In this document: positions 38,425 to 52,773 of the stretch, piece by piece
Layout: each line of letters opens with the position of its first letter
Numbering within the stretch: the first letter of the stretch is position 1
NCBI GenBank assembly: GCA_026413945.1
Contig: JAOAJX010000002.1
Coordinates: 85,536-149,535 of the forward strand
DNA length: 64,000 bases
Reading direction: 5' to 3'
Origin: Candidatus Iainarchaeum sp.
GTDB lineage: Archaea > Iainarchaeota > Iainarchaeia > Iainarchaeales > DTGL01
Made by a program: the position numbers and the translations under genes
The notes under the pieces: model-generated
What the model was told of the DNA's origin: nothing
Database searches by the model: none
What the model saw: only the letters and a program-made list of their open reading frames with translations

Positions 38425-40794
38425 GTGATCTATATGAAAAGCCGAGGCATACTGTTGCTTATACTTACAACTTATTTAATGAGCAGCTGCTATGCAATAG
38501 TAGAAAATGGAAGCATTCCAATCTTTGCAGTAGTAGAATCTGAAACCTCCGCTGTGAAAGCTGAGCTCAACATAAGCATAGTGCCAGGAAATGGCAGAAT
38601 ATGGAGTTCTGTTGGGCCTCTTATAGGGACTTCAACACAGCACACTGAGAAAGTAGCAGTGAATGTTGCAAGAAACTATTCAAAGGATGTTAATAAATAT
38701 GACTATATGTTTGACATAAAATCCGATGCAAGCGTTGTTGAGGGACCAAGCGCTGGTGCAGCAATGGCTCTTTTGCTTATTTCAATGCTTCAAGACAAAA
38801 AGCTACCAAACTATGTTTCCATAACAGGCCAAATATATGAAGATGGCACGGTGGGCTCTGTTGGCGGCGTTTACCTAAAAGCTCAGAAAGCACATGAATC
38901 AGGCATAAAGCTTTTCCTCATACCAAAAGGTGATGCTTACCAGACACACATGTTTCCAGATGGGATAAAAACAGTGAACCTTGTCGAGTATGCCCCAAAA
39001 AATTGGGGCCTAGTAGTAGTTGAGGTTTCAGATATAGATGAAGCATTAAAATATGCATTTATGGATCTCAGCGAAATAGACGTTAATACAAAAATAAAGG
39101 AACAAGAGCCGTTTGCTCCACAAATGAAAGTTTTAAAGGACAAAATGAAGCCAATGAAAGAGCTAACAAAAAAATACATAGGTAATTGCAAGGAAGAGAT
39201 TAAAGAAGCAAAAGCTGCACTGAATGAGATTTCCAACCCAGATATGGAAGTAATGACTGCATTGCTTGAATCTATTACAAACGCTGAAAAACTTATGAAA
39301 GACGCTAACATGCTTTATGAGGCTAATTATTTATATTCGGCAGCCAACAATGCATTTCTTTCGTGTGTCTATGCTGGCTTTGTCAAAGATGTCGCAAAAA
39401 ATCTATCTCTATTGGAATCAGATTCAAGTACAATAACATTCTTGAAAGAAGAATTGATGGAAAAAGTCCAGGAAAGAAAAAATGTTTTAGAAAGCTTTTA
39501 TACTTTGGAGAGAAGCGACTGGCTTATTGCTGCAAAGCAAAGAATACTGTGGGCAGAAACTAGCTTGAAAGGCATGGAAAGTAGGTTAACAACTATTGAG
39601 AAGCTAAAGGACTATGAGTTCGCTGCCGGATGGTATAAGATTTCAGGTGATTTCTACAATATCGCACTCTCAGCAAAAGACAAGTTCACGGCAAAGCCGA
39701 ACCTAAAAGAAATTGCAAGAAAAAAGATAATAGAGGCTGAAAACTGCTACGCAAAGCTTTCTGAAAAGGACGATGACATTGAGAGGCGCATAAAGTCTGC
39801 AAAAGCTGGCATTGAAATTGGCTGGCATGATTCTGCAATAATGGATGCTGCAAGCGCATACAGCCTATGCAAATCACTTGATGAAATTGGCAAGAAAGGC
39901 CTTTCTGAAATAAAAGCAATGATTGAAGAAAAAAATAAAGAAGTTTACGATGAAATAAGCAAAGATAATTTACAAGTATGGGCTGAGCTTTATCTTGACC
40001 ATTCAGAATACTTCAAAAAGGCAGCTGATTATTACCAAGCGGAAGGAATGAATTCTAAAGCAATAGATAATGCAAAGGCAGCGCTGAGTTTAGCTTATCT
40101 TGCAGAACACACATTCAATTCATCCAAAGAAATAATCAAAGCTCTCCAAGAAGCCGATAAAAAAGAGCTTACAATAAAGCTGCCGCCTGCGGAAAACACA
40201 AAAAGCCAAACACCCGCCACAAACACTGGCCAACAGGGCAATGGCAAAGAAAATAGCGATAAAAGCAATGAATCAGCAGTGGCTTACATTTATATCTTGG
40301 CTGCTATTGCGGTTGTTGCAATTTTAATAATGGCTTCAATTTTTTTGCTGCATAGGGCTGAGCTAAAAAGACATCCTATAAAAAAGCACTTAAAAAGAAA
40401 GATTGCGAAGCTTGAAGAAGAACTAACAAAAATAAACAAACTGCATGCGAGAGGCAAAATAAATTCAGAAGAATATGCTGCAAAAAAAGCAGAGTATGAA
40501 AAGCAAATAACCAATTTGAAGAATGAGATTTCAAAATATTCAAAAAAACTTGTTGAGCTTGACAGGCAAGTTGGAGAAATGAAAGGCCTTGTTGCTGCTT
40601 TAGAACAGATAAGGTACCACTATTCAAAAGGCGAGATAACTGACGAAGATTACAACAAATTTGTTGAAGATTATAATGCAAAGATAGAAAAACTTAAGAT
40701 GCACATAAAGAATGCTTCAGAACTTGCTGAAGAGCTACAAAAAAGCAGAGGAGAAAGTGAGCCAAAAAAGCAGAGGAAAAATAAAGGGAATTGA
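38425..40794 (+). CDS. Membrane-anchored Lon-like (S16) serine protease without AAA domain
   Basis: Signal peptide, VEGPSAGAAM (Ser), ITGQI..DG.VG.VGGV.LK (Lys), TM helix at about aa 620-645, cytoplasmic coiled coil. Confidence 0.88.
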   Translation: MIYMKSRGILLLILTTYLMSSCYAIVENGSIPIFAVVESETSAVKAELNISIVPGNGRIWSSVGPLIGTSTQHTEKVAVNVARNYSKDVNKYDYMFDIKSDASVVEGPSAGAAMALLLISMLQDKKLPNYVSITGQIYEDGTVGSVGGVYLKAQKAHESGIKLFLIPKGDAYQTHMFPDGIKTVNLVEYAPKNWGLVVVEVSDIDEALKYAFMDLSEIDVNTKIKEQEPFAPQMKVLKDKMKPMKELTKKYIGNCKEEIKEAKAALNEISNPDMEVMTALLESITNAEKLMKDANMLYEANYLYSAANNAFLSCVYAGFVKDVAKNLSLLESDSSTITFLKEELMEKVQERKNVLESFYTLERSDWLIAAKQRILWAETSLKGMESRLTTIEKLKDYEFAAGWYKISGDFYNIALSAKDKFTAKPNLKEIARKKIIEAENCYAKLSEKDDDIERRIKSAKAGIEIGWHDSAIMDAASAYSLCKSLDEIGKKGLSEIKAMIEEKNKEVYDEISKDNLQVWAELYLDHSEYFKKAADYYQAEGMNSKAIDNAKAALSLAYLAEHTFNSSKEIIKALQEADKKELTIKLPPAENTKSQTPATNTGQQGNGKENSDKSNESAVAYIYILAAIAVVAILIMASIFLLHRAELKRHPIKKHLKRKIAKLEEELTKINKLHARGKINSEEYAAKKAEYEKQITNLKNEISKYSKKLVELDRQVGEMKGLVAALEQIRYHYSKGEITDEDYNKFVEDYNAKIEKLKMHIKNASELAEELQKSRGESEPKKQRKNKGN

Positions 40795-40796
40795 GG

Positions 40797-43748
40797 CTAT
40801 TGTTGAGCCACATCTGAAAGATGTTTTGTGAGATCAAGGCCGACTATTTGAGATCCTGATTTTGTAAGGGTAACTCCTAACACTTGCATCGCATATCTTA
40901 CAACCACATTGTTGTGAGTAATAACTATTATATGCGACTTCTTAGACAACTCTTCTAAAACCTTGCTAACCTTTATTGAATTTACCTCGTCCAATGCAGC
41001 ATCCGTTTCGTCCAAAAAATAAAGGGGTGCAGGCGCATACAAGAGTATTGCAAAAATGAAGGCCAGTGCTGTTAGGGTTTTTTCTCCGCCGCTCATCGCA
41101 TCTATTGACTGTAAATTTTCTTTGTGCCTTGCTTCAATTATTAGACCAGCTTTACTAATATCTTCGTAGTCTGTCAGACTAAGCTTGCCCGTGCCACCAA
41201 AAAAGTTGTAAAACATGTCAGAGAAGTTCTTGTTTATCTTCTCAAAGCAATCCATGAATATTTCTTTCTTCCTGATCTCTATTTTTTGAATCATATCAAT
41301 CACTGCTTTTTGTTCCTCTTCAAGCTTCTCTATCTTGGACTTGACTTCCAGAAGAAGTTCTTCTTCTTCCCTTACAGCTTCGCTTGCCCTAAGATTAACT
41401 GCACCAATTGTATTTAATTCACGATCAACGTCAGATAACATTTTTTTCATATCCTTAATTGGAACATCCTCTATGATTTGTGTCTTTGGAATCTCTTTTA
41501 GCTCTTCTTCAAGGTCTGCTAAACGCACTTCTGCTTTGCCAATTTCAATCCTTATTTCGTTGCTTTCGCGTTCTGCTTTAACTGAATCTGCTTCAACAAG
41601 GTTGAGCTCTGTCTTAAGCTTTTGAATCAGGCCTAAGAGACCTTCTTTCTCCTCAAGAAGTGAAGCTATCTGTTCACTCCTCTTAAGCTTCTTCTCCTCT
41701 ATCTTGGCAAGTTCTTTTTTGAGGCTTTCTAATGCCTTTGTTTTTTCCTCTTTTTGCTTGTTGAGCTGTTGCTTTTCAGATGAAAGCTCATTGATGCGAG
41801 CTCTTAAGGTCGCAATCCTTTCAGCAATATTCTCTATGTTAACTTCAGAAACACGCAAATTGCTTTCAAGAGTTGAAAGCTGGTCTTTTAATTCGGCTAG
41901 CTGTGAATATTTATCATCATAGCTAAAGTCTGAAAGCTCATCAAGAAGTTCTCTTTTTTCCGTACGGATTCTGTTAAGAGAAGATATCTTCTGTTCAAGA
42001 GCTGATATTTCGCCTGAAAGTACTTTAAGATCCTTTATGCTTCTTTTTTCCTCTTCTATTTTGAGTTTTATTTCATCTACTCTCTTAATCTCTTTTTCCT
42101 TGGCTTGCAATTCTTGAGATATTTTTGAAAGCTTACCTAACTCTAATTCGGTTTCCTTTATCTTATTTCGAATCTCTTTGAGGTTTTCTACGATAGATGC
42201 TTTTTGCATTTCAGAATTTTTCAATTCCTTAAGCTTTTTTTCATGGAGTTTTTTCTTTCTTTCTGGGTTTATATTGCTGTCACAAATAGGGCATTTTGCT
42301 GATGCGCTCTCTATGCTAACAATTGCCTCTTTTAGCTGATTTATAAGCCCGGTCTGCAATCCATCTTTGGTTAAGAGATCTCTCTCAAGTTCCTTTAGCT
42401 TTTTTAGCTTTTCCTCTAAAGATTTGGATTCAAGAACATTCAATTGCTCTTTAAGATTTGAAATAGATGTTCTTAGCTGATCACAATCTGTTAATTCAGC
42501 AGATAGCTCTTTTATTCTCTTTTCCCTTAAGTCATTTTCACCTTTTATTTCTCCAAATTCTTTTTGCTTTGTCTTTATTGTGTCTTGCAGATTTTCTATC
42601 TCTTGCTCAATTGAACGTATTTCTTCCTCAATTTCTGCCTTTCGCAAAGAAAGTGCCTCACTATCTTTCTTCTTTTGCTGAATTTCGCTTTCCATGGAGT
42701 TTATTATCGAATTCTGCTCTTCAATCTCAAGCCTTATTGCCTCTATTTGCTGTTGCTCTTCTTCCTGCCTTCTAAGCAAGCTTTGCAGCTCTGTGGCAAG
42801 TGAGTTTTCTTGTGATTCAATTTTTCCAACTGCTTTGGAATTGGCGCTTATTATTTCCTCCGAAACCCTTATCTCAGTTCTGAGCTCTTCTGCCTTTGCT
42901 CCAAACTCAAGATATATTTGTTGCTGTTCTTCAACAATACTCTTGCTTAATTCTTCGCTTTTCTTTTCGAATTCTGAAATTTTTTTGCTTATTGATTCTT
43001 TTTCAGATGACCTTTTAGACACTTTTTCCTGAAGTAGCCTAAGCCTTTCTTTATTCTTTTCAATTTCCTGCTTTATAGCTTTTGCTTCGGAGTTTATTAT
43101 GCTTGCCTTAAGCATATTTCTCCTTTCAACAAGGCCTTTATAGCGCTCTGCCTGCTCACGTTCCTTTTGCAGTTGCTCTAACCGCGCAAGTTTTTCTTGA
43201 AGCACGAGCTTAACATCCTTTATCCTTTCATTTACCTTATCAAGGTTAAGCTGTGCTTCTTTGCGCTTTATCTCAAATTCTTCTATGCCTGCAAGCTCAT
43301 CAATTATTGTGCGCCTCTGCTCTGGATTCATCTCTATTATGCGAGTTATATCGCCTTGTGCTATAAAATTGTGCTTGCTTCTAAGCCCCAACTCTTCAAC
43401 AAGTGAAACGAGCTCATTAAGCGTAACCTTCTTATCATTGATCCTGCATTCACTACGTCCCTTGTTGTCTATAAGCCTGCTTATTAGTATCTCTTCATTA
43501 TCGCGCTTAAGCTTAAGCTCAACCTTTGCATATTTTTCGGCTGAGCTGTAATTTACAAGCTCTGTTATCTTTCCCATCCTCAAGCTTTTCATTGATGTCT
43601 CGCCGAGGACAAAAAGCATCGCATCGAGAAGATTGCTTTTTCCAGAGCCATTTGGGCCTATGATTGCGGTAAGGCCTTTTTTGAAAGGTATCTCTGCGCT
43701 TCTGAACGATTTAAAGTTCTTGAGAACGAGCTTCTTTATTTCAACCAT
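40797..43748 (-). CDS. smc: SMC-family ATPase with condensin-type head and central CxxC zinc hook instead of a hinge
   Basis: NFKSF, GPNGSGKSN, KSLR, QGDI, GAVNLRA, MSGGEK, PLYFLDETDAALD, ITH; CPIC at aa 486-489 of 983. Confidence 0.9.
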   Translation of the reverse strand: MVEIKKLVLKNFKSFRSAEIPFKKGLTAIIGPNGSGKSNLLDAMLFVLGETSMKSLRMGKITELVNYSSAEKYAKVELKLKRDNEEILISRLIDNKGRSECRINDKKVTLNELVSLVEELGLRSKHNFIAQGDITRIIEMNPEQRRTIIDELAGIEEFEIKRKEAQLNLDKVNERIKDVKLVLQEKLARLEQLQKEREQAERYKGLVERRNMLKASIINSEAKAIKQEIEKNKERLRLLQEKVSKRSSEKESISKKISEFEKKSEELSKSIVEEQQQIYLEFGAKAEELRTEIRVSEEIISANSKAVGKIESQENSLATELQSLLRRQEEEQQQIEAIRLEIEEQNSIINSMESEIQQKKKDSEALSLRKAEIEEEIRSIEQEIENLQDTIKTKQKEFGEIKGENDLREKRIKELSAELTDCDQLRTSISNLKEQLNVLESKSLEEKLKKLKELERDLLTKDGLQTGLINQLKEAIVSIESASAKCPICDSNINPERKKKLHEKKLKELKNSEMQKASIVENLKEIRNKIKETELELGKLSKISQELQAKEKEIKRVDEIKLKIEEEKRSIKDLKVLSGEISALEQKISSLNRIRTEKRELLDELSDFSYDDKYSQLAELKDQLSTLESNLRVSEVNIENIAERIATLRARINELSSEKQQLNKQKEEKTKALESLKKELAKIEEKKLKRSEQIASLLEEKEGLLGLIQKLKTELNLVEADSVKAERESNEIRIEIGKAEVRLADLEEELKEIPKTQIIEDVPIKDMKKMLSDVDRELNTIGAVNLRASEAVREEEELLLEVKSKIEKLEEEQKAVIDMIQKIEIRKKEIFMDCFEKINKNFSDMFYNFFGGTGKLSLTDYEDISKAGLIIEARHKENLQSIDAMSGGEKTLTALAFIFAILLYAPAPLYFLDETDAALDEVNSIKVSKVLEELSKKSHIIVITHNNVVVRYAMQVLGVTLTKSGSQIVGLDLTKHLSDVAQQ

Positions 43749-43766
43749 GTGATAACCACTTGCAAT

Positions 43767-44564
43767 TTATTTTTTGTGTTTTGAATAATAGAGCGCTAAA
43801 GCACCAATGCAAAAAGCTGAGTTAAAAGTTCCAAATGCGGAAAATATCGCAAATATAGTTATGTTATCATCAAAAGGCTCAACCACAATATTGTACAAGA
43901 GAGCTGTCAAAAGCAGCACCAAAAGCAAGATAAAGCACAGCAGAACAGTAGCCCAAAAGTGATTATTGACAAAAGCCCAATTTTTTTTCAGGGCTTGTTT
44001 AGCATTTGTTTTTTCCTCTGCAAGCGCCGGCATAACAAAAGTAAACAGCCGTATGCAGATTATCAAAAAAATTAATAAAAACAAGGCAATTAGGCCAAAG
44101 TAAAGGTAAAGGTTAGGTATTGGCAATAATGCAACGACAAAAAAAAGGGTAAAGGCTGATACGAAGACAAGGAACATTATTCCTGAAAGCACAATAGCAT
44201 TCCATAAAGAGCCAATCGCAAAGGCCAAAGCGCTTATGATACTTATTTTTTTCTCCTTTGAAATTATGATTCGGCAATAGTAAATACTTACAAGCAGGAA
44301 AACAGCTAAGCTCAAGAAAGCATAACCAACAATGTAAAAAAGACCTTTTGGGTTTACACTATAAAAATAAGATAAGGCATGAAAAGGATTGCTCAGGGGA
44401 GCCTCTTTTGTTGATATCAGGTAAATAAAATCCAGAAGTTCAAGCTGGAAAAAAACAGATATATTTGCCAAGGCAAACATTGTGATGAAAACAGGCACAA
44501 GAGCAAAAGGCCTTTTAAACATCATGCCCAAAGAGCCTGACAAAGCACCAAGCATATTTATCAA
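43767..44564 (-). CDS. Polytopic membrane protein of unknown function
   Basis: About 6 TM segments; 18 nt upstream of smc on the same strand. Confidence 0.8.
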   Translation of the reverse strand: MINMLGALSGSLGMMFKRPFALVPVFITMFALANISVFFQLELLDFIYLISTKEAPLSNPFHALSYFYSVNPKGLFYIVGYAFLSLAVFLLVSIYYCRIIISKEKKISIISALAFAIGSLWNAIVLSGIMFLVFVSAFTLFFVVALLPIPNLYLYFGLIALFLLIFLIICIRLFTFVMPALAEEKTNAKQALKKNWAFVNNHFWATVLLCFILLLVLLLTALLYNIVVEPFDDNITIFAIFSAFGTFNSAFCIGALALYYSKHKK

Positions 44565-49845: not shown

Positions 49846-52773
49846 TCATAATGGATTTACTACATGGCCGGCAACCGCATCAACGAAAAATCTTTTCTTA
49901 ATTTTTGTCTTTGAGTTTTCAGTTATGCATTCATAAACAGGCCAATATATTTCTTTAATTGCAGTTATAACCATGCGTTTCCATATTCTTTGCAAAAGGT
50001 CGCGAACTTCGTTTTTTGTATATTTTTCTTGTTCTTTCATAAGTACTTCCGAATTAACTAATGGCAAATCTTGAAGTGATTGGTGCAATGGATGCATTGG
50101 GCTTGGCGGCAAGTCGAAGTCTTTGCTAAGCCTATAAAGAATCATGCCTTCTTTGTTGAATATTTCCGCTAAACCAATATCACAAAGGCGCTTAAGTATT
50201 TTCTTCACACGATCCTCATCGAGGAAAGACCTTCTGCTTATGTGATATGCAGTTAGGGGCTCTGTGAGGAAATTAAGAACAAAGATTTCTTCTGCTGACA
50301 AAGAATAAAGTTCTTTTAGGCCTTTAGAATGGACAAAGCCCTTAATAAAGTGTATGAATTCACCATTCAAAGAATTTACAAAAAGTGTTCCTTGCCTAAA
50401 GTTCTGTTCCTTTGTAAAATAATTGAACTCAACCTTGTAAAGCGGGATGTGCTTAAGATTAATCTCTAGTAGCTTCTCGGTGCTACCAAACAAGAAAAAG
50501 CCGGAAAGCTTTTTCTTTATTTTTGTTTCAATTGATTCTCTTGAAACATTTGCAGGAAAACTCAAAAGCTCAATAACGCCTTGCTGCGACACAGGCTTTT
50601 GTATTGGTTGCTCTTTTTGAGGCATTTGTTCTTGAGTTTTCAAAACTTCTTGCTGCACGGAAGGGGCTTTTGTAACATCTTCTTCTCTTTTTAATGGCCT
50701 TTGAATCTTGTCTTCAAGTACAACAAGGCCTTCCTTTTCAAGTATTGTTGCACCTTTCTTTTCAAGCTCTGCTAAAATTGCCTTCTTATCGACGCTTGAG
50801 CTGTACTTTGCATTTAGAGAGTTCAGAGTCCTAAATATTTCAGCAAGCTTTGCTTGACCATCTCTTTTAAGGCGAGACCAATACATTGAGGTTATAAGGG
50901 TTAAAACCTGCTCATTGCTCAGTGAAACTTTAGTTTCAGCTGTTTCTATCTCACGGCCTTCGTGTTGGCTCATCCTGGGCCTTATGCGCATCACAAATCC
51001 GCGGCTTGTTTCCTCGCGCCTATCACATACAAGAGCTACACCAACAGGCAGAGTCCTTATGAAAGAACCAGTTTTATACCTATGTGGAATTATTGCTGGT
51101 GTTCTTTTATAAACTGCCTTTATATCATCGTTGAAAACAAGCTTATGCACAATTATTATGTCAAGCTGGCTAAGAACTCTTACATCTATTGCTGATGGTT
51201 GCTGTGTAGCAAAAACAAGCGAGCATCCTGGGCGCCTTCCTTGCTTTACATATTCTATCAATGCATCGCTAGCCGCTGTCTTAATATTCCCGCTTGGTAT
51301 TAGCGTATGCGCTTCATCTAATATAAGCCAAGTAGGGGGTATTTCAATCTCAAGCATTTCTTCACTTGATTCAAATCTTTTAGCAGCTTCTTTTCTTGTT
51401 GCAATTTTTCTTGCAGCGAGTGTGCGCCTTGCCAAGATTCCTATTACAAGTGCGGTAACATTATCATCCAAAAAGCTTGTGTCTATTATTGTCATTTGCC
51501 CTTCACGGCTAAGCTCTGACAAAGGCGTGCCCTGTACATCAAAAATTCCCCAAGATTTTGATGCTTCAAATCTGCTAACTAACGCACGTATGGAATCAAC
51601 CTTAAAACCCTTGTCTCTAGAACTCAAGTCAATATCGTTCTCAAGACAGAAGATTATGTCATCAATTGAATATTCTTTGGTGCCTTTTATGCGCTCTTTG
51701 TTTACAGTCATATAGCCCTTTGCAACTTTATCAAGTGCCTTTTCTAGCAATAAGCCGGTTGGGCTAAAGCGCTCAAGCCCAAATGTAAGGCACCAGTCTT
51801 GTGCTGTAAGCATTGATGGCTTTATTGAAAATGTGGCATCATATGTGCCAGCAGGTGTTTGCTTTTCCATCCCTTTTGGTATAAAAACGACGATGTTCTC
51901 AAGACCTCTTGGTTCAAGCCCCCAGCCTTTCAAAGAAGCGAGCTCTCTTTCTTCACGATTAGCATATCGCATGCTCCAGAATACACCAACGGGATCTACA
52001 ACAATAATGCCTACATTCTTATTCTTTAATGCGAGCTCTTCAGCTATAACCCCCAAAACATAGCTTTTGCCACTGCCTCTTGCACCACATACAAAAACAA
52101 CATGCGGTCCCAAGCTGTCCATCAGGATGTTCTTTTCAGGATAATTTTCTTCTGAAACCCTGCCTATAAAAAGTGCGGCTTCAGAGCCATATTTTTCAAA
52201 TGTTGACTTGCTTCTGCCAATAAAGGCGTTTCCATCAGCATCCTCTAAAAAACTAAGTTTTGGAAGTATTTCAAGAGTTGGCTCGGAAACAAATATTTTA
52301 CCCTCAGGAGCAGTTTCGTCAACAAAATCCTTTAAATCATCTTCGCTAGTTTCTTGCTGCTTATCGGCTGCTTCACCACCAAGTGCTTCTTTGCCACTTT
52401 CTGTTTGTTCAGACGGAAGTGTTGCCTCTGCTTTTGTTTCTTTTTTATCACTGAGCTTTCTCTTCTTTGTGCTTTGCTTACTCTTTTTATGTACCTCAAT
52501 TAATTCTTCTGCAGTTTCTTGAGATGTGCTTTCCTTCTGTGCTCTGACTTGCGGAGAAGCTTTTTCTTCATCTTCAGTAGAGCTTCCTTTTGCTTCCTTG
52601 TTCTGCGGCTCCTTTGCATATATGCTTTTTTGCATCTTTTCTGATTCTTTTTTGGCTGCCTCGTTCAGCTTCTTTCTTGCTTCTTTTAGCTCATCATCAA
52701 GGCCAAAGACATCTTCAAATAAGTCTTCTTCTTTAGAATCTTTTTCAACTTCAACCCTTTTTTCGTCAGCCAT
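49846..52773 (-). CDS. DUF87/HerA-FtsK superfamily ATPase with acidic N-terminus and extra C-terminal domains
   Basis: PHVVFVCGARGSGKSY (Walker A), VVDPVG, WLILDEAH (Walker B), KQGR, ATQQP. Confidence 0.88.
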   Translation of the reverse strand: MADEKRVEVEKDSKEEDLFEDVFGLDDELKEARKKLNEAAKKESEKMQKSIYAKEPQNKEAKGSSTEDEEKASPQVRAQKESTSQETAEELIEVHKKSKQSTKKRKLSDKKETKAEATLPSEQTESGKEALGGEAADKQQETSEDDLKDFVDETAPEGKIFVSEPTLEILPKLSFLEDADGNAFIGRSKSTFEKYGSEAALFIGRVSEENYPEKNILMDSLGPHVVFVCGARGSGKSYVLGVIAEELALKNKNVGIIVVDPVGVFWSMRYANREERELASLKGWGLEPRGLENIVVFIPKGMEKQTPAGTYDATFSIKPSMLTAQDWCLTFGLERFSPTGLLLEKALDKVAKGYMTVNKERIKGTKEYSIDDIIFCLENDIDLSSRDKGFKVDSIRALVSRFEASKSWGIFDVQGTPLSELSREGQMTIIDTSFLDDNVTALVIGILARRTLAARKIATRKEAAKRFESSEEMLEIEIPPTWLILDEAHTLIPSGNIKTAASDALIEYVKQGRRPGCSLVFATQQPSAIDVRVLSQLDIIIVHKLVFNDDIKAVYKRTPAIIPHRYKTGSFIRTLPVGVALVCDRREETSRGFVMRIRPRMSQHEGREIETAETKVSLSNEQVLTLITSMYWSRLKRDGQAKLAEIFRTLNSLNAKYSSSVDKKAILAELEKKGATILEKEGLVVLEDKIQRPLKREEDVTKAPSVQQEVLKTQEQMPQKEQPIQKPVSQQGVIELLSFPANVSRESIETKIKKKLSGFFLFGSTEKLLEINLKHIPLYKVEFNYFTKEQNFRQGTLFVNSLNGEFIHFIKGFVHSKGLKELYSLSAEEIFVLNFLTEPLTAYHISRRSFLDEDRVKKILKRLCDIGLAEIFNKEGMILYRLSKDFDLPPSPMHPLHQSLQDLPLVNSEVLMKEQEKYTKNEVRDLLQRIWKRMVITAIKEIYWPVYECITENSKTKIKKRFFVDAVAGHVVNPL

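What the first reader, a model, noticed from the sequence alone, without database searches (positions are those of the whole stretch)
40797..43748. Hinge-less condensin-type SMC that appears to dimerise through a Rad50-like zinc hook
Seen in sequence: both head halves and the neck carry condensin-Smc signatures (FVLG..KSLR, QGDI..IIEM.P.QRR.IIDELAGI, GAVNLRA, MSGGEK.LTALA.IFA, PAPLYFLDETDAALD). There is no globular hinge and no Gly-rich hinge motif anywhere. Instead, uninterrupted coiled coil leads to ASAKCPICDSNINPERKK at aa 486-489 of 983 (nt 42282-42293), almost the exact midpoint. Established: canonical Smc is about 1150-1200 aa and dimerises through a hinge, whereas a central CxxC hook is the Rad50/SbcC hallmark. 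As I recall, hooks also occur in some divergent archaeal SMC-like proteins such as ClsN. Inference: this is a genuine Smc-ScpA(B)-type condensin whose hinge was replaced by a hook. That would be a natural test of whether the hinge is needed for loading and loop extrusion. No mre11, scpA or scpB lies next to it.
Basis: partly seen in the sequence, partly recalled or inferred. Interest (0 to 1): 0.85.

Follow-up and report, generated by a model that had tools for sequence, protein, structure and literature searches.

The report
Archaeal Smc with zinc hook, no hinge
This small archaeon's only chromosome-organising Smc protein has lost the usual hinge and carries instead a Rad50-type zinc hook, a natural version of a domain swap so far known only from engineered proteins.

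Summary
The gene lies on the minus strand at window 40797-43748 and encodes 983 aa. It has intact Smc head motifs and two long coiled-coil arms. It has no SMC hinge, and CPIC sits at aa 486-489, the midpoint.

- **Heads:** they are Smc, not Rad50. NCBIfam SMC scores 499.8 bits against 128 for Rad50. In head-only trees the protein sits inside hinge-bearing archaeal Smc, far from Rad50.
- **Hook:** the apex is homologous to the Rad50 zinc hook. A profile of 22 such apices hits the solved P. furiosus hook (1L8D, E 1.3e-11). It also hits the same order's Rad50 hooks (hhalign 98.5%). The AF2 model superposes on 1L8D at TM 0.87.
- **Genome:** 0.95 Mb, 92% complete, Diapherotrites/Iainarchaeota-like. 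It has no hinge anywhere, one ScpA, one ScpB, a separate Rad50 and an Mre11-like gene.
- **Distribution:** the architecture is typical of the genome's order. A hinge was found in 2 of 182 sampled genomes there, against 17 of 19 in sister orders.

Best reading: a genuine Smc-ScpAB whose hinge was replaced by a Rad50-derived hook. Zinc-dependent dimerisation is inferred, not shown. I found no paper describing a natural case. Engineered swaps are known (Bürmann 2017).

The parts
40797..43748 (-). hook-Smc gene, 983 aa plus stop
   Evidence: ORF list and translation. SMC_N 142 bits. TIGR02169 499.8 bits.
43254..43748 (-). N-terminal half of the ATPase head (aa 1-165). It holds Walker A GPNGSGKS (nt 43635-43658) and Q-loop Q131 (nt 43356-43358).
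   Evidence: Coordinates verified by translation. G31, N33, G36, K37, S38 and Q131 are invariant in alignment A1. The AF2 model shows a beta/alpha head.
42306..43286 (-). N-terminal coiled-coil arm (aa ~155-481), with breaks at 202-218 and 441-443
   Evidence: AF2 helices 155-201, 219-440 and 444-481. Arm length is about 333 residues from the AG motif to the first Cys.
42138..42437 (-). Rad50-type zinc-hook module (aa 438-537) with CPIC at nt 42282-42293 (aa 486-489)
   Evidence: Translation. PF04423 scores 21 bits on this 100-aa piece, and 22 of 22 relatives' pieces hit it at E<=1. The profile hits PDB 1L8D at E 1.3e-11. hhalign against same-order Rad50 hooks gives 98.5%. The AF2 model has pLDDT 90 and its best Foldseek hit is 1l8d_B, TM 0.87, rmsd 1.5.
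41199..42266 (-). C-terminal coiled-coil arm (aa 495-850), with breaks at 570-574, 606-609, 747-763 and 781-788
   Evidence: AF2 helices. Arm length is about 292 residues in this protein; the clade median is 297.
40800..41198 (-). C-terminal half of the ATPase head (aa 851-983). It holds the signature MSGGEK (nt 41079-41096), Walker B LYFLDE (nt 41007-41024), the D-loop and H-loop H945 (nt 40914-40916).
   Evidence: Coordinates verified. S886, G887, G888, E889, D913, E914, D916 and H945 are invariant in A1.

Best explanation
This is the organism's one and only Smc, the ATPase of an Smc-ScpA-ScpB condensin. It descends from ordinary hinge-bearing archaeal Smc. In its lineage the globular hinge, plus roughly 10-15 residues of each adjoining arm, was replaced by a zinc-hook module homologous to the Rad50 hook. 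Each 983-aa chain folds back on itself into an antiparallel coiled coil of about 330 and 295 residues, with CPIC at the tip. Two tips are inferred to share one Zn2+ through their four cysteines, as in Rad50. That would give the constitutive dimer that the hinge normally provides. The heads keep all ATPase motifs. They are inferred to engage on ATP binding and to be bridged by the kleisin ScpA with ScpB, so the complex would still entrap and translocate on DNA. SHOWN HERE: the gene and its motifs; the Smc ancestry of the heads; the absence of a hinge; the homology of the apex to Rad50 hooks; the presence of scpA, scpB and rad50 elsewhere in the genome; the clade-wide distribution; and the tight conservation of arm length. 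INFERRED: zinc binding, dimerisation through the hook, binding to ScpAB, and loop extrusion or segregation function.
For: Heads and arms:
- TIGR02169 scores 499.8 bits on profile 2-458, and TIGR02168 scores 433.5 bits on profile 699-1180, so only the hinge segment is unmatched. Rad50 models reach at most 128 bits and ASRP 113.
- Foldseek of the full AF2 model (pLDDT 79) returns yeast condensin Smc and Pyrococcus Smc heads first, including 5xns with ScpA at TMt 0.80.
- In head-only trees Rad50 is separated with 100% SH-aLRT. The window protein lies in a starred clade (95%, 97%) with hinge-bearing Smc of sister orders.
- The catalytic residues are invariant in A1.

Hook:
- The profile of 22 apices hits solved Rad50 hooks: 1L8D at E 1.3e-11, 6ZFF at 1.9e-11 and 5GOX at 3.4e-4. 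The next unrelated hit is at 0.0012.
- hhalign against 18 same-order Rad50 hooks gives 98.5% probability and a score of 80.8. Eight coiled-coil controls score 19-27.
- 22 of 22 apices hit PF04423 at E<=1, the best at 1.1e-9.
- The AF2 apex model matches 1l8d_B at TM 0.87 and rmsd 1.5. The two chains of 1L8D are the only hits with E<=0.001.

Genome:
- There is no PF06470 hit in the genome. The only SMC_N proteins are this one, Rad50 and RLI.
- ScpA scores 50.3 bits and ScpB 109.9 bits, both over their cut-offs. A separate Rad50 has its own hook at 27.6 bits.

Relatives (41 genomes of the order, the window's own included):
- A homologue was found in 38 of 41 and a hinge in 1 of 41.
- ScpA was found in 40 of 41, ScpB in 39 of 41 and Rad50 in 41 of 41.
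- In the phylum sample, a hinge was found in 2 of 182 genomes of the order and in 17 of 19 genomes of the other orders.

Arm length: N arm 330-339 and C arm 290-299 residues in 51 of 54 hook proteins, against medians of 348 and 304 in 17 hinge proteins.

Precedent: the engineered B. subtilis Smc with the PfRad50 hook is functional (PMC5344682, passages).
Against: - No experiment or confident model shows zinc binding or dimerisation.
- For this one protein the PF04423 score is below Pfam's cut-off: 17.4 bits on the whole protein and 21 on the 100-aa piece, against 24.3.
- TIGR02169 is below its curated cut-off (499.8 against 729.4).
- The hinge, conventionally a defining SMC feature, is absent.
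- Proteins of about 905-950 aa that lack both hinge and cysteines are nested within the hook clade. The cysteines are therefore dispensable in some lineages, which weakens the claim that the hook is the essential dimer interface.
- Tree support for a single hook clade is moderate (SH-aLRT 89 and 86, 'quick' searches, no bootstraps). One hook protein, P0147, falls outside in a polytomy.
- Three of 41 relatives gave no Smc match: G004 (96% complete), G035 (95%) and G031 (67%).
- scpA and scpB are not linked to the gene, so partnership rests on co-occurrence alone.
Confidence: 0.72

Rival explanations
1. The protein is an Smc orthologue, but the CPxC tip is not a zinc-mediated dimer interface. 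It would be only a stabilised hairpin turn, or a vestige of the recombination that removed the hinge. Dimerisation would then come from arm-arm, head and kleisin contacts.
For: Hinge-less proteins without any central Cys (about 905-950 aa) are nested among hook proteins, and no conserved apex motif replaces the cysteines. The genomes carrying them (G013, G034) still have ScpA and ScpB.
Against: CPxC and its flanks (L..L.K..A.CP.C...L....K..L) are conserved down to about 31% overall identity and match the Rad50 hook profile, not merely a CxxC. Both Cys occur in 22 of 24 relatives' ORFs. 85 of 86 hook proteins have Pro in the second position. In Rad50 this module is a dimer interface (PMC6969161, passages).
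Confidence: 0.13
2. The hook changed the job. Like Rad50 hooks, it might link complexes in trans or serve DNA-end tethering or repair. The protein would then no longer be a loop-extruding condensin, even though it derives from Smc.
For: The module is homologous to the one used by the DNA-repair protein Rad50. The gene has no operon context that points to segregation.
Against: A separate, complete Rad50 with HerA and NurA beside it, plus an Mre11-like gene, is retained in this genome. A Rad50 homologue was found in 41 of 41 relatives, while no other Smc is present. ScpA and ScpB are retained. Arm length is held close to that of hinge Smc. The engineered hook-Smc performs normal Smc function in B. 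subtilis (PMC5344682).
Confidence: 0.1
3. It is a Rad50, ASRP (ClsN/Sph) or other hook-bearing SMC-like paralogue that merely resembles Smc in its heads.
For: It has a central CxxC and no hinge, as in Rad50 and ASRP (PMC9389158).
Against: SMC models score 4-fold higher than Rad50 or ASRP models. The protein is 983 aa, against 796 aa for the genome's Rad50 and a 593-position ASRP model. The Rad50 branch is separated with 100% support and a length of 2.8-4.4 substitutions per site. No ASRP sequences were placed in my trees.
Confidence: 0.03
4. Assembly chimera or frameshift artefact that deleted the hinge.
For: The source is a metagenome-assembled genome in 21 contigs.
Against: One Logan contig covers 40500-44000 with 0 differences, although the run may be the same data. 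The same architecture occurs in dozens of independent assemblies from different sources.
Confidence: 0.01

Closest known systems
Canonical prokaryotic Smc of Smc-ScpAB (e.g. Pyrococcus Smc, PDB 5xei, 5xns, 4i99; NCBIfam TIGR02169/TIGR02168)
   Same: The head sequence and fold match, with all ATPase motifs intact. The arms are about 300-330 residues per strand. It is the only Smc in the genome, and ScpA and ScpB are present. It is nested phylogenetically among hinge-bearing archaeal Smc.
   Different: The whole hinge is missing; PF06470 is absent from the protein and from the genome. The protein is about 130-200 aa shorter. The apex is a CPxC hook. The score falls below the TIGR02169 cut-off, and most NCBI-named records in the hit list are called only 'AAA family ATPase'.
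Rad50 zinc hook (P. furiosus, PDB 1L8D and 6ZFF; Pfam PF04423)
   Same: The apex module matches: the CPxC motif, its flanking pattern and the hairpin coiled-coil fold. Evidence is a profile E of 1.3e-11, TM 0.87 and hhalign 98.5% against same-order Rad50 hooks.
   Different: Everything outside the apex is Smc, not Rad50. The inferred partners are the ScpA kleisin and ScpB, not Mre11. The genome keeps its own Rad50. The donor lineage could not be resolved: the SMC-hook profile scores 20-49 bits on the order's own Rad50 hooks and 47.9 on P. furiosus.
[quoted passage not shown] 2017, PMC5344682; passages read)
   Same: The design is the same: Smc heads and arms with a Rad50 hook at the apex. The chimera supported normal growth on nutrient-rich medium (medium as summarised by the review PMC7752040, passage read), and its function still depended on arm length. 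In the natural proteins, arm length is tightly conserved.
   Different: That construct is man-made, in a bacterium. This one is natural, archaeal, fixed across an order and evidently old, since relatives are down to about 31% identical.
ASRP family (ClsN / coalescin, Sph1, Sph2; Yoshinaga et al. 2022, PMC9389158; passages read)
   Same: These are archaeal SMC-superfamily proteins with a zinc hook instead of a hinge.
   Different: ASRP is described as a clade distinct from SMC and Rad50, and its model is about 590 aa. This protein scores 113 bits on NF045487, whose cut-off is 300, against 499.8 bits on SMC. ASRP is not reported with kleisin partners.
'Hinge-less' SMC of marine Actinobacteria (Sussfeld et al. 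2025, PMC12153180; passages read)
   Same: It is a natural SMC-clade protein lacking the hinge.
   Different: Those proteins are bacterial, and the paper states that they lack the CXXC motif. Here the hinge is replaced by a conserved Rad50-type hook. The Cys-less, roughly 920-aa relatives noted in passing resemble that case more closely.

Membership tests
Smc (Smc-ScpAB condensin ATPase) | Bipartite ABC head with Walker A, Q-loop, signature motif, Walker B, D-loop and H-loop | tested here: met
   GPNGSGKS, Q131, MSGGEK, LYFLDE, D916 and H945 are all present and invariant in 50 aligned relatives.
Smc (Smc-ScpAB condensin ATPase) | Best profile match is SMC, above the curated cut-off | tested here: inconclusive
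   SMC_prok_A is by far the best model (499.8 bits, against 128 for Rad50). It is below its 729.4 cut-off because profile positions of about 459-698, the hinge, are unmatched.
Smc (Smc-ScpAB condensin ATPase) | Globular hinge dimerisation domain (PF06470) | tested here: not met
   No hit in the protein or in the genome. A home-made hinge HMM gave no hit either. An alignment with hinge Smc shows the hinge replaced by about 25 residues.
Smc (Smc-ScpAB condensin ATPase) | Long antiparallel coiled-coil arms of canonical length | tested here: met
   AF2 helices span aa 155-481 and 495-850. The arms are 333 and 292 residues, against medians of 348 and 304 in hinge relatives (regex anchors, approximate).
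Smc (Smc-ScpAB condensin ATPase) | Heads fall within the Smc clade in a phylogeny | tested here: met
   ('quick' ML, SH-aLRT only). Rad50 was the outgroup. Named bacterial and archaeal Smc references were included. No ASRP, RecN or MukB rows were included.
Smc (Smc-ScpAB condensin ATPase) | Kleisin ScpA and KITE ScpB encoded in the genome | tested here: met
   ScpA is 237 aa and scores 50.3 bits; ScpB is 177 aa and scores 109.9 bits. Among relatives ScpA was found in 40 of 41 and ScpB in 39 of 41.
Smc (Smc-ScpAB condensin ATPase) | Physical binding to ScpA, and DNA loading or loop extrusion | not testable with these tools
   Needs biochemistry.
Rad50 / SbcC | Central CxxC zinc hook at the coiled-coil apex | tested here: met
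   CPIC lies at aa 486-489 of 983. Profile and fold both match Rad50 hooks. The single-sequence PF04423 score is sub-threshold, at 17.4-21 bits.
Rad50 / SbcC | Rad50-type ATPase head (Rad50 equivalog models; groups with Rad50) | tested here: not met
   The best Rad50 model scores 128 bits against a cut-off of 700. Rad50 is separated by a branch with 100% support.
Rad50 / SbcC | Partnership or linkage with the Mre11/SbcD nuclease | tested here: not met
   There is no nuclease gene nearby. The genome has its own Rad50 beside herA and nurA, and an unlinked Mre11-like gene.
ASRP (ClsN / Sph) | Match to NF045487 above its cut-off; about 600 aa; a clade distinct from SMC | tested here: not met
   113 bits against a cut-off of 300, and far below the SMC score. 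The protein is 983 aa. No ASRP rows were placed in the trees.

The most novel reading that the evidence does not exclude
An entire order of DPANN archaea (Diapherotrites/Iainarchaeota-like by the NCBI names of homologues) has run its sole Smc-ScpAB condensin for a long evolutionary time with a Rad50-derived zinc hook instead of the hinge. This would show in nature that the hinge's structure, its DNA-binding surface and any hinge-opening gate are dispensable for Smc function, provided arm length is kept. Some descendants have since lost even the cysteines. That would mean a covalent-like apex link may itself be dispensable. It would also offer a graded natural series (hinge, then hook, then bare apex) for dissecting what the SMC apex is for.
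Probability: 0.55. Interest if true: 0.78.

Novelty: new variant of a known kind. Interest (0 to 1): 0.66.

Why it matters
- **Textbook distinction.** Reviews separate SMC proteins, which dimerise by a hinge and work with kleisin and KITE/HAWK partners, from Rad50, which dimerises by a zinc hook and works with Mre11 (for example PMC10586767, passages). This protein crosses that line naturally.
- **Support for engineering results.** It corroborates the engineering result that the dimerisation domain is 'surprisingly uncritical' while arm geometry matters (PMC5344682). The natural hook-Smc proteins hold arm length within about 10 residues.
- **Models of Smc action.** It bears on models in which the hinge binds DNA or acts as an entry gate.
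- **Study material.** It supplies compact natural proteins for structural work.
- **Annotation.** Because these proteins fail the hinge model and the TIGR02169 cut-off, most NCBI-named records in the hit list are called 'AAA family ATPase'. Surveys that score Smc by those models would wrongly call this order Smc-less.

Tried and rejected
- **Complex prediction of the hook dimer.** I ran complex prediction on two copies of aa 425-550 plus Zn. The tool's verdict was 'no answer' (score 0.10 against a mark of 0.42), and the controls were not run. This is no evidence either way.
- **Expression.** The look-up of sequencing runs listed one DNA holder (X1) and no RNA holder, so nothing can be said about expression.
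- **Counting hook-Smc across the phylum with the hook profile A2**. It matched 182 of 201 genomes, but the profile also hits Rad50 hooks (frames of about 680-815 aa), so the tally does not count hook-Smc. I did not use it.
- **Donor of the hook.** The A2 profile scores the order's own Rad50 hooks at 20-49 bits (18 of 18 hit). That is the same range as P. furiosus at 47.9 bits, so the donor is unresolved.
- **The search for related loci with A1 in genome contigs**. I used it only as a source of named Smc references.
- **The 594-aa SMC_N hit on contig C11** is RLI/ABCE1, not an SMC-like protein.
- **Single origin of the hook clade.** The free 'quick' trees did not recover all hook rows together. 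An AU test holding 25 hook and Cys-less rows together did not reject it: p-AU 0.597, and the constrained tree was 3.8 lnL better. I named the group after seeing the tree, so this is weak.
- **Rows dropped.**
  - 24 of 30 loci passed my ORF and Walker-A filter. L027, L032, L035, L036, L039 and L042 did not, for reasons including inteins, stops or a variant start.
  - P0144, P0165 and P0193 were dropped because my regex found no signature motif. Proteins bearing inteins and fragments were not selected.
  - L130, L173 and L122 were dropped.
  - A1 was built from 50 proteins that I picked because they had the central CxxC, so the invariance of the two Cys in A1 follows from that selection.
  - Arm lengths cover only the 54 hook and 17 hinge proteins that my regex anchors matched.
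- **Literature.** Searches found no paper describing a natural Smc with a zinc hook. Krishnan et al. 2020 (NAR, ABC ATPase classification) is not held and could contain such a mention. Supplements were not consulted.


Full report
- Window 40797-43748 is one open frame on the minus strand, 983 aa.
- I verified the coordinates by translation:
  - Walker A GPNGSGKS at nt 43635-43658
  - Q131 at nt 43356-43358
  - CPIC at nt 42282-42293 (aa 486-489)
  - signature MSGGEK at nt 41079-41096
  - Walker B LYFLDE at nt 41007-41024
  - H945 at nt 40914-40916
- The protein has only five cysteines, at 101, 422, 486, 489 and 834.
- Pfam finds SMC_N at 142 bits and no SMC_hinge. Rad50_zn_hook gives a sub-threshold hit of 17.4 bits (cut-off 24.3) at aa 469-507.

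**The heads and arms are Smc.**
- NCBIfam SMC_prok_A scores 499.8 bits, with aa 4-458 on profile positions 2-458. SMC_prok_B scores 433.5 bits, with aa 499-972 on positions 699-1180. Only the hinge part of the models is unmatched.
- Rad50 models reach at most 128 bits, ASRP (ClsN/Sph) 113 and arcadin-4 80.
- The full-length AF2 model used an alignment of 50 relatives and has pLDDT 79.2. It gives a beta/alpha head. Helices 155-481 lead to a short loop at 482-494 that holds the two cysteines. Helices 495-850 then lead back to the head.
- Foldseek puts yeast condensin Smc (6yvu_B, E 1.5e-36) and Pyrococcus Smc heads first: 5xei; 5xns with ScpA, TMt 0.80; and 4i99.
- An alignment with hinge-bearing relatives shows their hinge, including the GxxG...GRxTFIPL...GG block, replaced by about 25 residues here.

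**The apex is a Rad50-type hook, not just a CxxC.**
- I cut 100 aa around the motif from 22 relatives' genes (A2) and from 18 Rad50 genes of the same order (A3). Both share the pattern L..L.K..A.CP.C...L....[KR]..L.
- Profile against profile gives 98.5% probability, E 2.1e-15 and a score of 80.8.
- Eight controls pairing a hook with plain coiled-coil stretches of the same proteins gave scores of 19-27 and probabilities of 6-48%.
- The A2 profile finds the solved P. furiosus Rad50 hook (1L8D, E 1.3e-11; 6ZFF, 1.9e-11) and the human one (5GOX, 3.4e-4). The next unrelated chain is at 0.0012.
- All 22 pieces hit PF04423 at E<=1, the best at 1.1e-9. The window's own piece scores 21 bits.
- An AF2 model of the apex has pLDDT 90. 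Its best match is 1l8d_B, with TM 0.87/0.85 and rmsd 1.5 Å over 95 columns. The two chains of 1L8D are the only hits with E<=0.001.
- The donor lineage cannot be told.

**The genome context fits a condensin.**
- The window lies on contig C14 of a 948,649-bp assembly in 21 contigs, 92% complete.
- No hinge domain is found anywhere in the assembly.
- The SMC_N hits are this gene, a Rad50 and RLI/ABCE1.
- The Rad50 is 796 aa, with its own hook at 27.6 bits and NF003034 at 209.8 bits. It sits beside herA and nurA.
- ScpA is 237 aa at 50.3 bits, and ScpB is 177 aa at 109.9 bits. Both are present and unlinked to the gene.
- An Mre11-like gene of 437 aa lies on C16. Its best match is Mre11_Sulfo at 89.8 bits, below that model's cut-off.
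- None of these genes is next to the smc gene.

**The architecture belongs to a clade.**
- The closest named homologues are 'Candidatus Diapherotrites archaeon' and 'Candidatus ainarchaeum sp.' MAGs, mostly annotated 'AAA family ATPase'.
- Of the 120 best hits:
  - 65 have a central CxxC and no hinge.
  - 2 more have the motif displaced by an intein.
  - 27 have a hinge.
  - 26 have neither.
- Over all 248 proteins collected, the counts are 86 + 3 hook, 122 hinge and 37 neither.
- Among 41 genomes of the window's order (29 families, the window's own genome included):

| Feature | Genomes with it |
|---|---|
| Smc homologue | 38 of 41 |
| Hinge domain | 1 of 41 (G019) |
| ScpA | 40 of 41 |
| ScpB | 39 of 41 |
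| Rad50 | 41 of 41 |

- A central CPxC is present in 22 of the 24 ORFs I could extract from 30 loci.
- In a 201-genome sample of the phylum, a hinge was found in 2 of 182 genomes of this order and in 17 of 19 genomes of the other orders of the class.

**Head-only trees.**
- The first tree had 98 rows and the second had 68 rows with named Smc references. Both were 'quick' ML with SH-aLRT support only.
- Both split Rad50 off with 100% support.
- Both place hook proteins, together with the Cys-less ones, inside a starred clade (95% and 97%) that also holds the sister orders' hinge Smc.
- The node uniting the hook forms has 89% or 86% support. One hook row falls outside in a polytomy.
- An AU test does not reject a single origin (p 0.597). 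I named the group after seeing the tree.

**Arm length.** The hook proteins measure N 330-339 and C 290-299 residues in 51 of 54 cases. The medians for 17 hinge proteins are 348 and 304 (regex anchors, approximate).

**It is not an assembly artefact.** Logan's contigs of run X1, listed as a hot-springs metagenome and possibly the source, hold 40500-44000 in one 34,237-nt contig with no differences or gaps.

**Mechanism proposed.**
- Two chains, each folded into a rod of roughly 45-50 nm, are joined at their tips by one Zn2+ held by four cysteines, as in Rad50.
- The heads bind and hydrolyse ATP.
- ScpA bridges the heads, with ScpB bound to it.
- The complex loads on and moves along DNA as Smc-ScpAB does.
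- Zinc binding, dimerisation, ScpAB binding and DNA transactions are all inferred.
- The Cys-less relatives warn that the apex link may be less critical than supposed.

**Comparison with what is known.**
- Engineered swaps exist in both directions.
  - B. subtilis Smc with the PfRad50 hook grows normally on nutrient-rich medium and still needs correct arm length (PMC5344682, passages; medium as summarised by the review PMC7752040, passage).
  - Yeast Rad50 with a MukB or BsSmc hinge repairs DNA (PMC6969161, passages).
  - Both are summarised in PMC7752040 (passage).
- Hook-bearing archaeal ASRPs (ClsN, Sph) are a separate family (PMC9389158, passages).
- A hinge-less SMC clade of marine Actinobacteria lacks CXXC (PMC12153180, passages).
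- A survey of archaeal SMC did not mention hooks in the passages I searched (10.1101/2021.05.15.444277).
- A 2023 review still states the hinge-versus-hook dichotomy (PMC10586767, passages).
- Five full-text searches found no description of a natural hook-bearing Smc. Krishnan et al. 2020 could not be read.

**Verdict.** This is a real and well-supported feature: a new variant of a known kind. By descent, heads, arms and partners it is Smc. It fails the hinge criterion and carries a Rad50-family module in its place. Interest is moderate to high. The engineered precedent lowers the surprise. The natural, order-wide and ancient fixation, and the further Cys-less derivatives, raise it.

Noticed in passing
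L038 (G013) and L040 (G034); proteins P0044, P0062, P0064, P0066-P0072, P0074, P0087, P0132, P0133, P0135, P0141, P0145, P0151: These Smc homologues of about 905-950 aa lack both the hinge and the central cysteines. Their apex shows no conserved motif. In the head trees they sit in several places within the hook clade, and their genomes keep ScpA and ScpB.
   Followed up: partly
Proteins P0097, P0101, P0102, P0104, P0107-P0112, P0118, P0119, P0171: This group of Smc homologues, about 1076-1084 aa, has a globular middle (for example ...FVVLS...FYFDGF.YK...). Neither PF06470 (precomputed list) nor my hinge HMM recognises it. It may be a very divergent hinge or a third kind of apex.
   Followed up: no
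P0038, P0045, P0047, P0049, P0050, P0054, P0134, P0137 (804-812 aa); P0143 (772 aa): These are short-arm hook-Smc proteins with CPxC again at the exact midpoint, about 90 residues shorter per arm. This could bear on the periodic arm-length rule of Bürmann 2017.
   Followed up: no
P0041, P0059, P0139; L035 (G028), L039 (G037); also P0052, P0060: Inteins or homing-endonuclease domains (PF14528, PF14890) are inserted in hook-Smc genes of relatives, giving frames of 1198-1576 aa. One of them is named 'archaeon GW2011_AR10'.
   Followed up: no
G019:C31 (L043); G197:C241: These are the only two hinge hits inside the window's order. G019 (family f8, 78% complete) seems to have a hinge-type Smc as its only Smc. 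The G197 hit is a 40.7-bit fragment on a small contig, in a genome that also has a hook-type frame. Possible explanations are a basal family, misplacement or contamination.
   Followed up: partly
G004 (same genus, 96% complete): No Smc homologue was found at E<=1e-20, although ScpA, ScpB and Rad50 are present. The cause is either an assembly gap or real loss.
   Followed up: no
window 49846-52773 (-): A 975-aa protein with HerA-type DUF87 and HerA_C ATPase domains lies here, unusually long and 6 kb from the smc gene.
   Followed up: no
window 38425-40794 (+): A 789-aa protein with a Lon_C (S16) protease domain near its N-terminus and a SHOCT motif at aa 665-690 converges on the smc stop codon with a 2-nt gap.
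   Followed up: no
G000 contig C11:58079-63595 (L056) and C16 (L095): rad50 lies next to herA and nurA on the opposite strand, but without mre11. The only Mre11-like gene (437 aa) is on another contig.
   Followed up: partly
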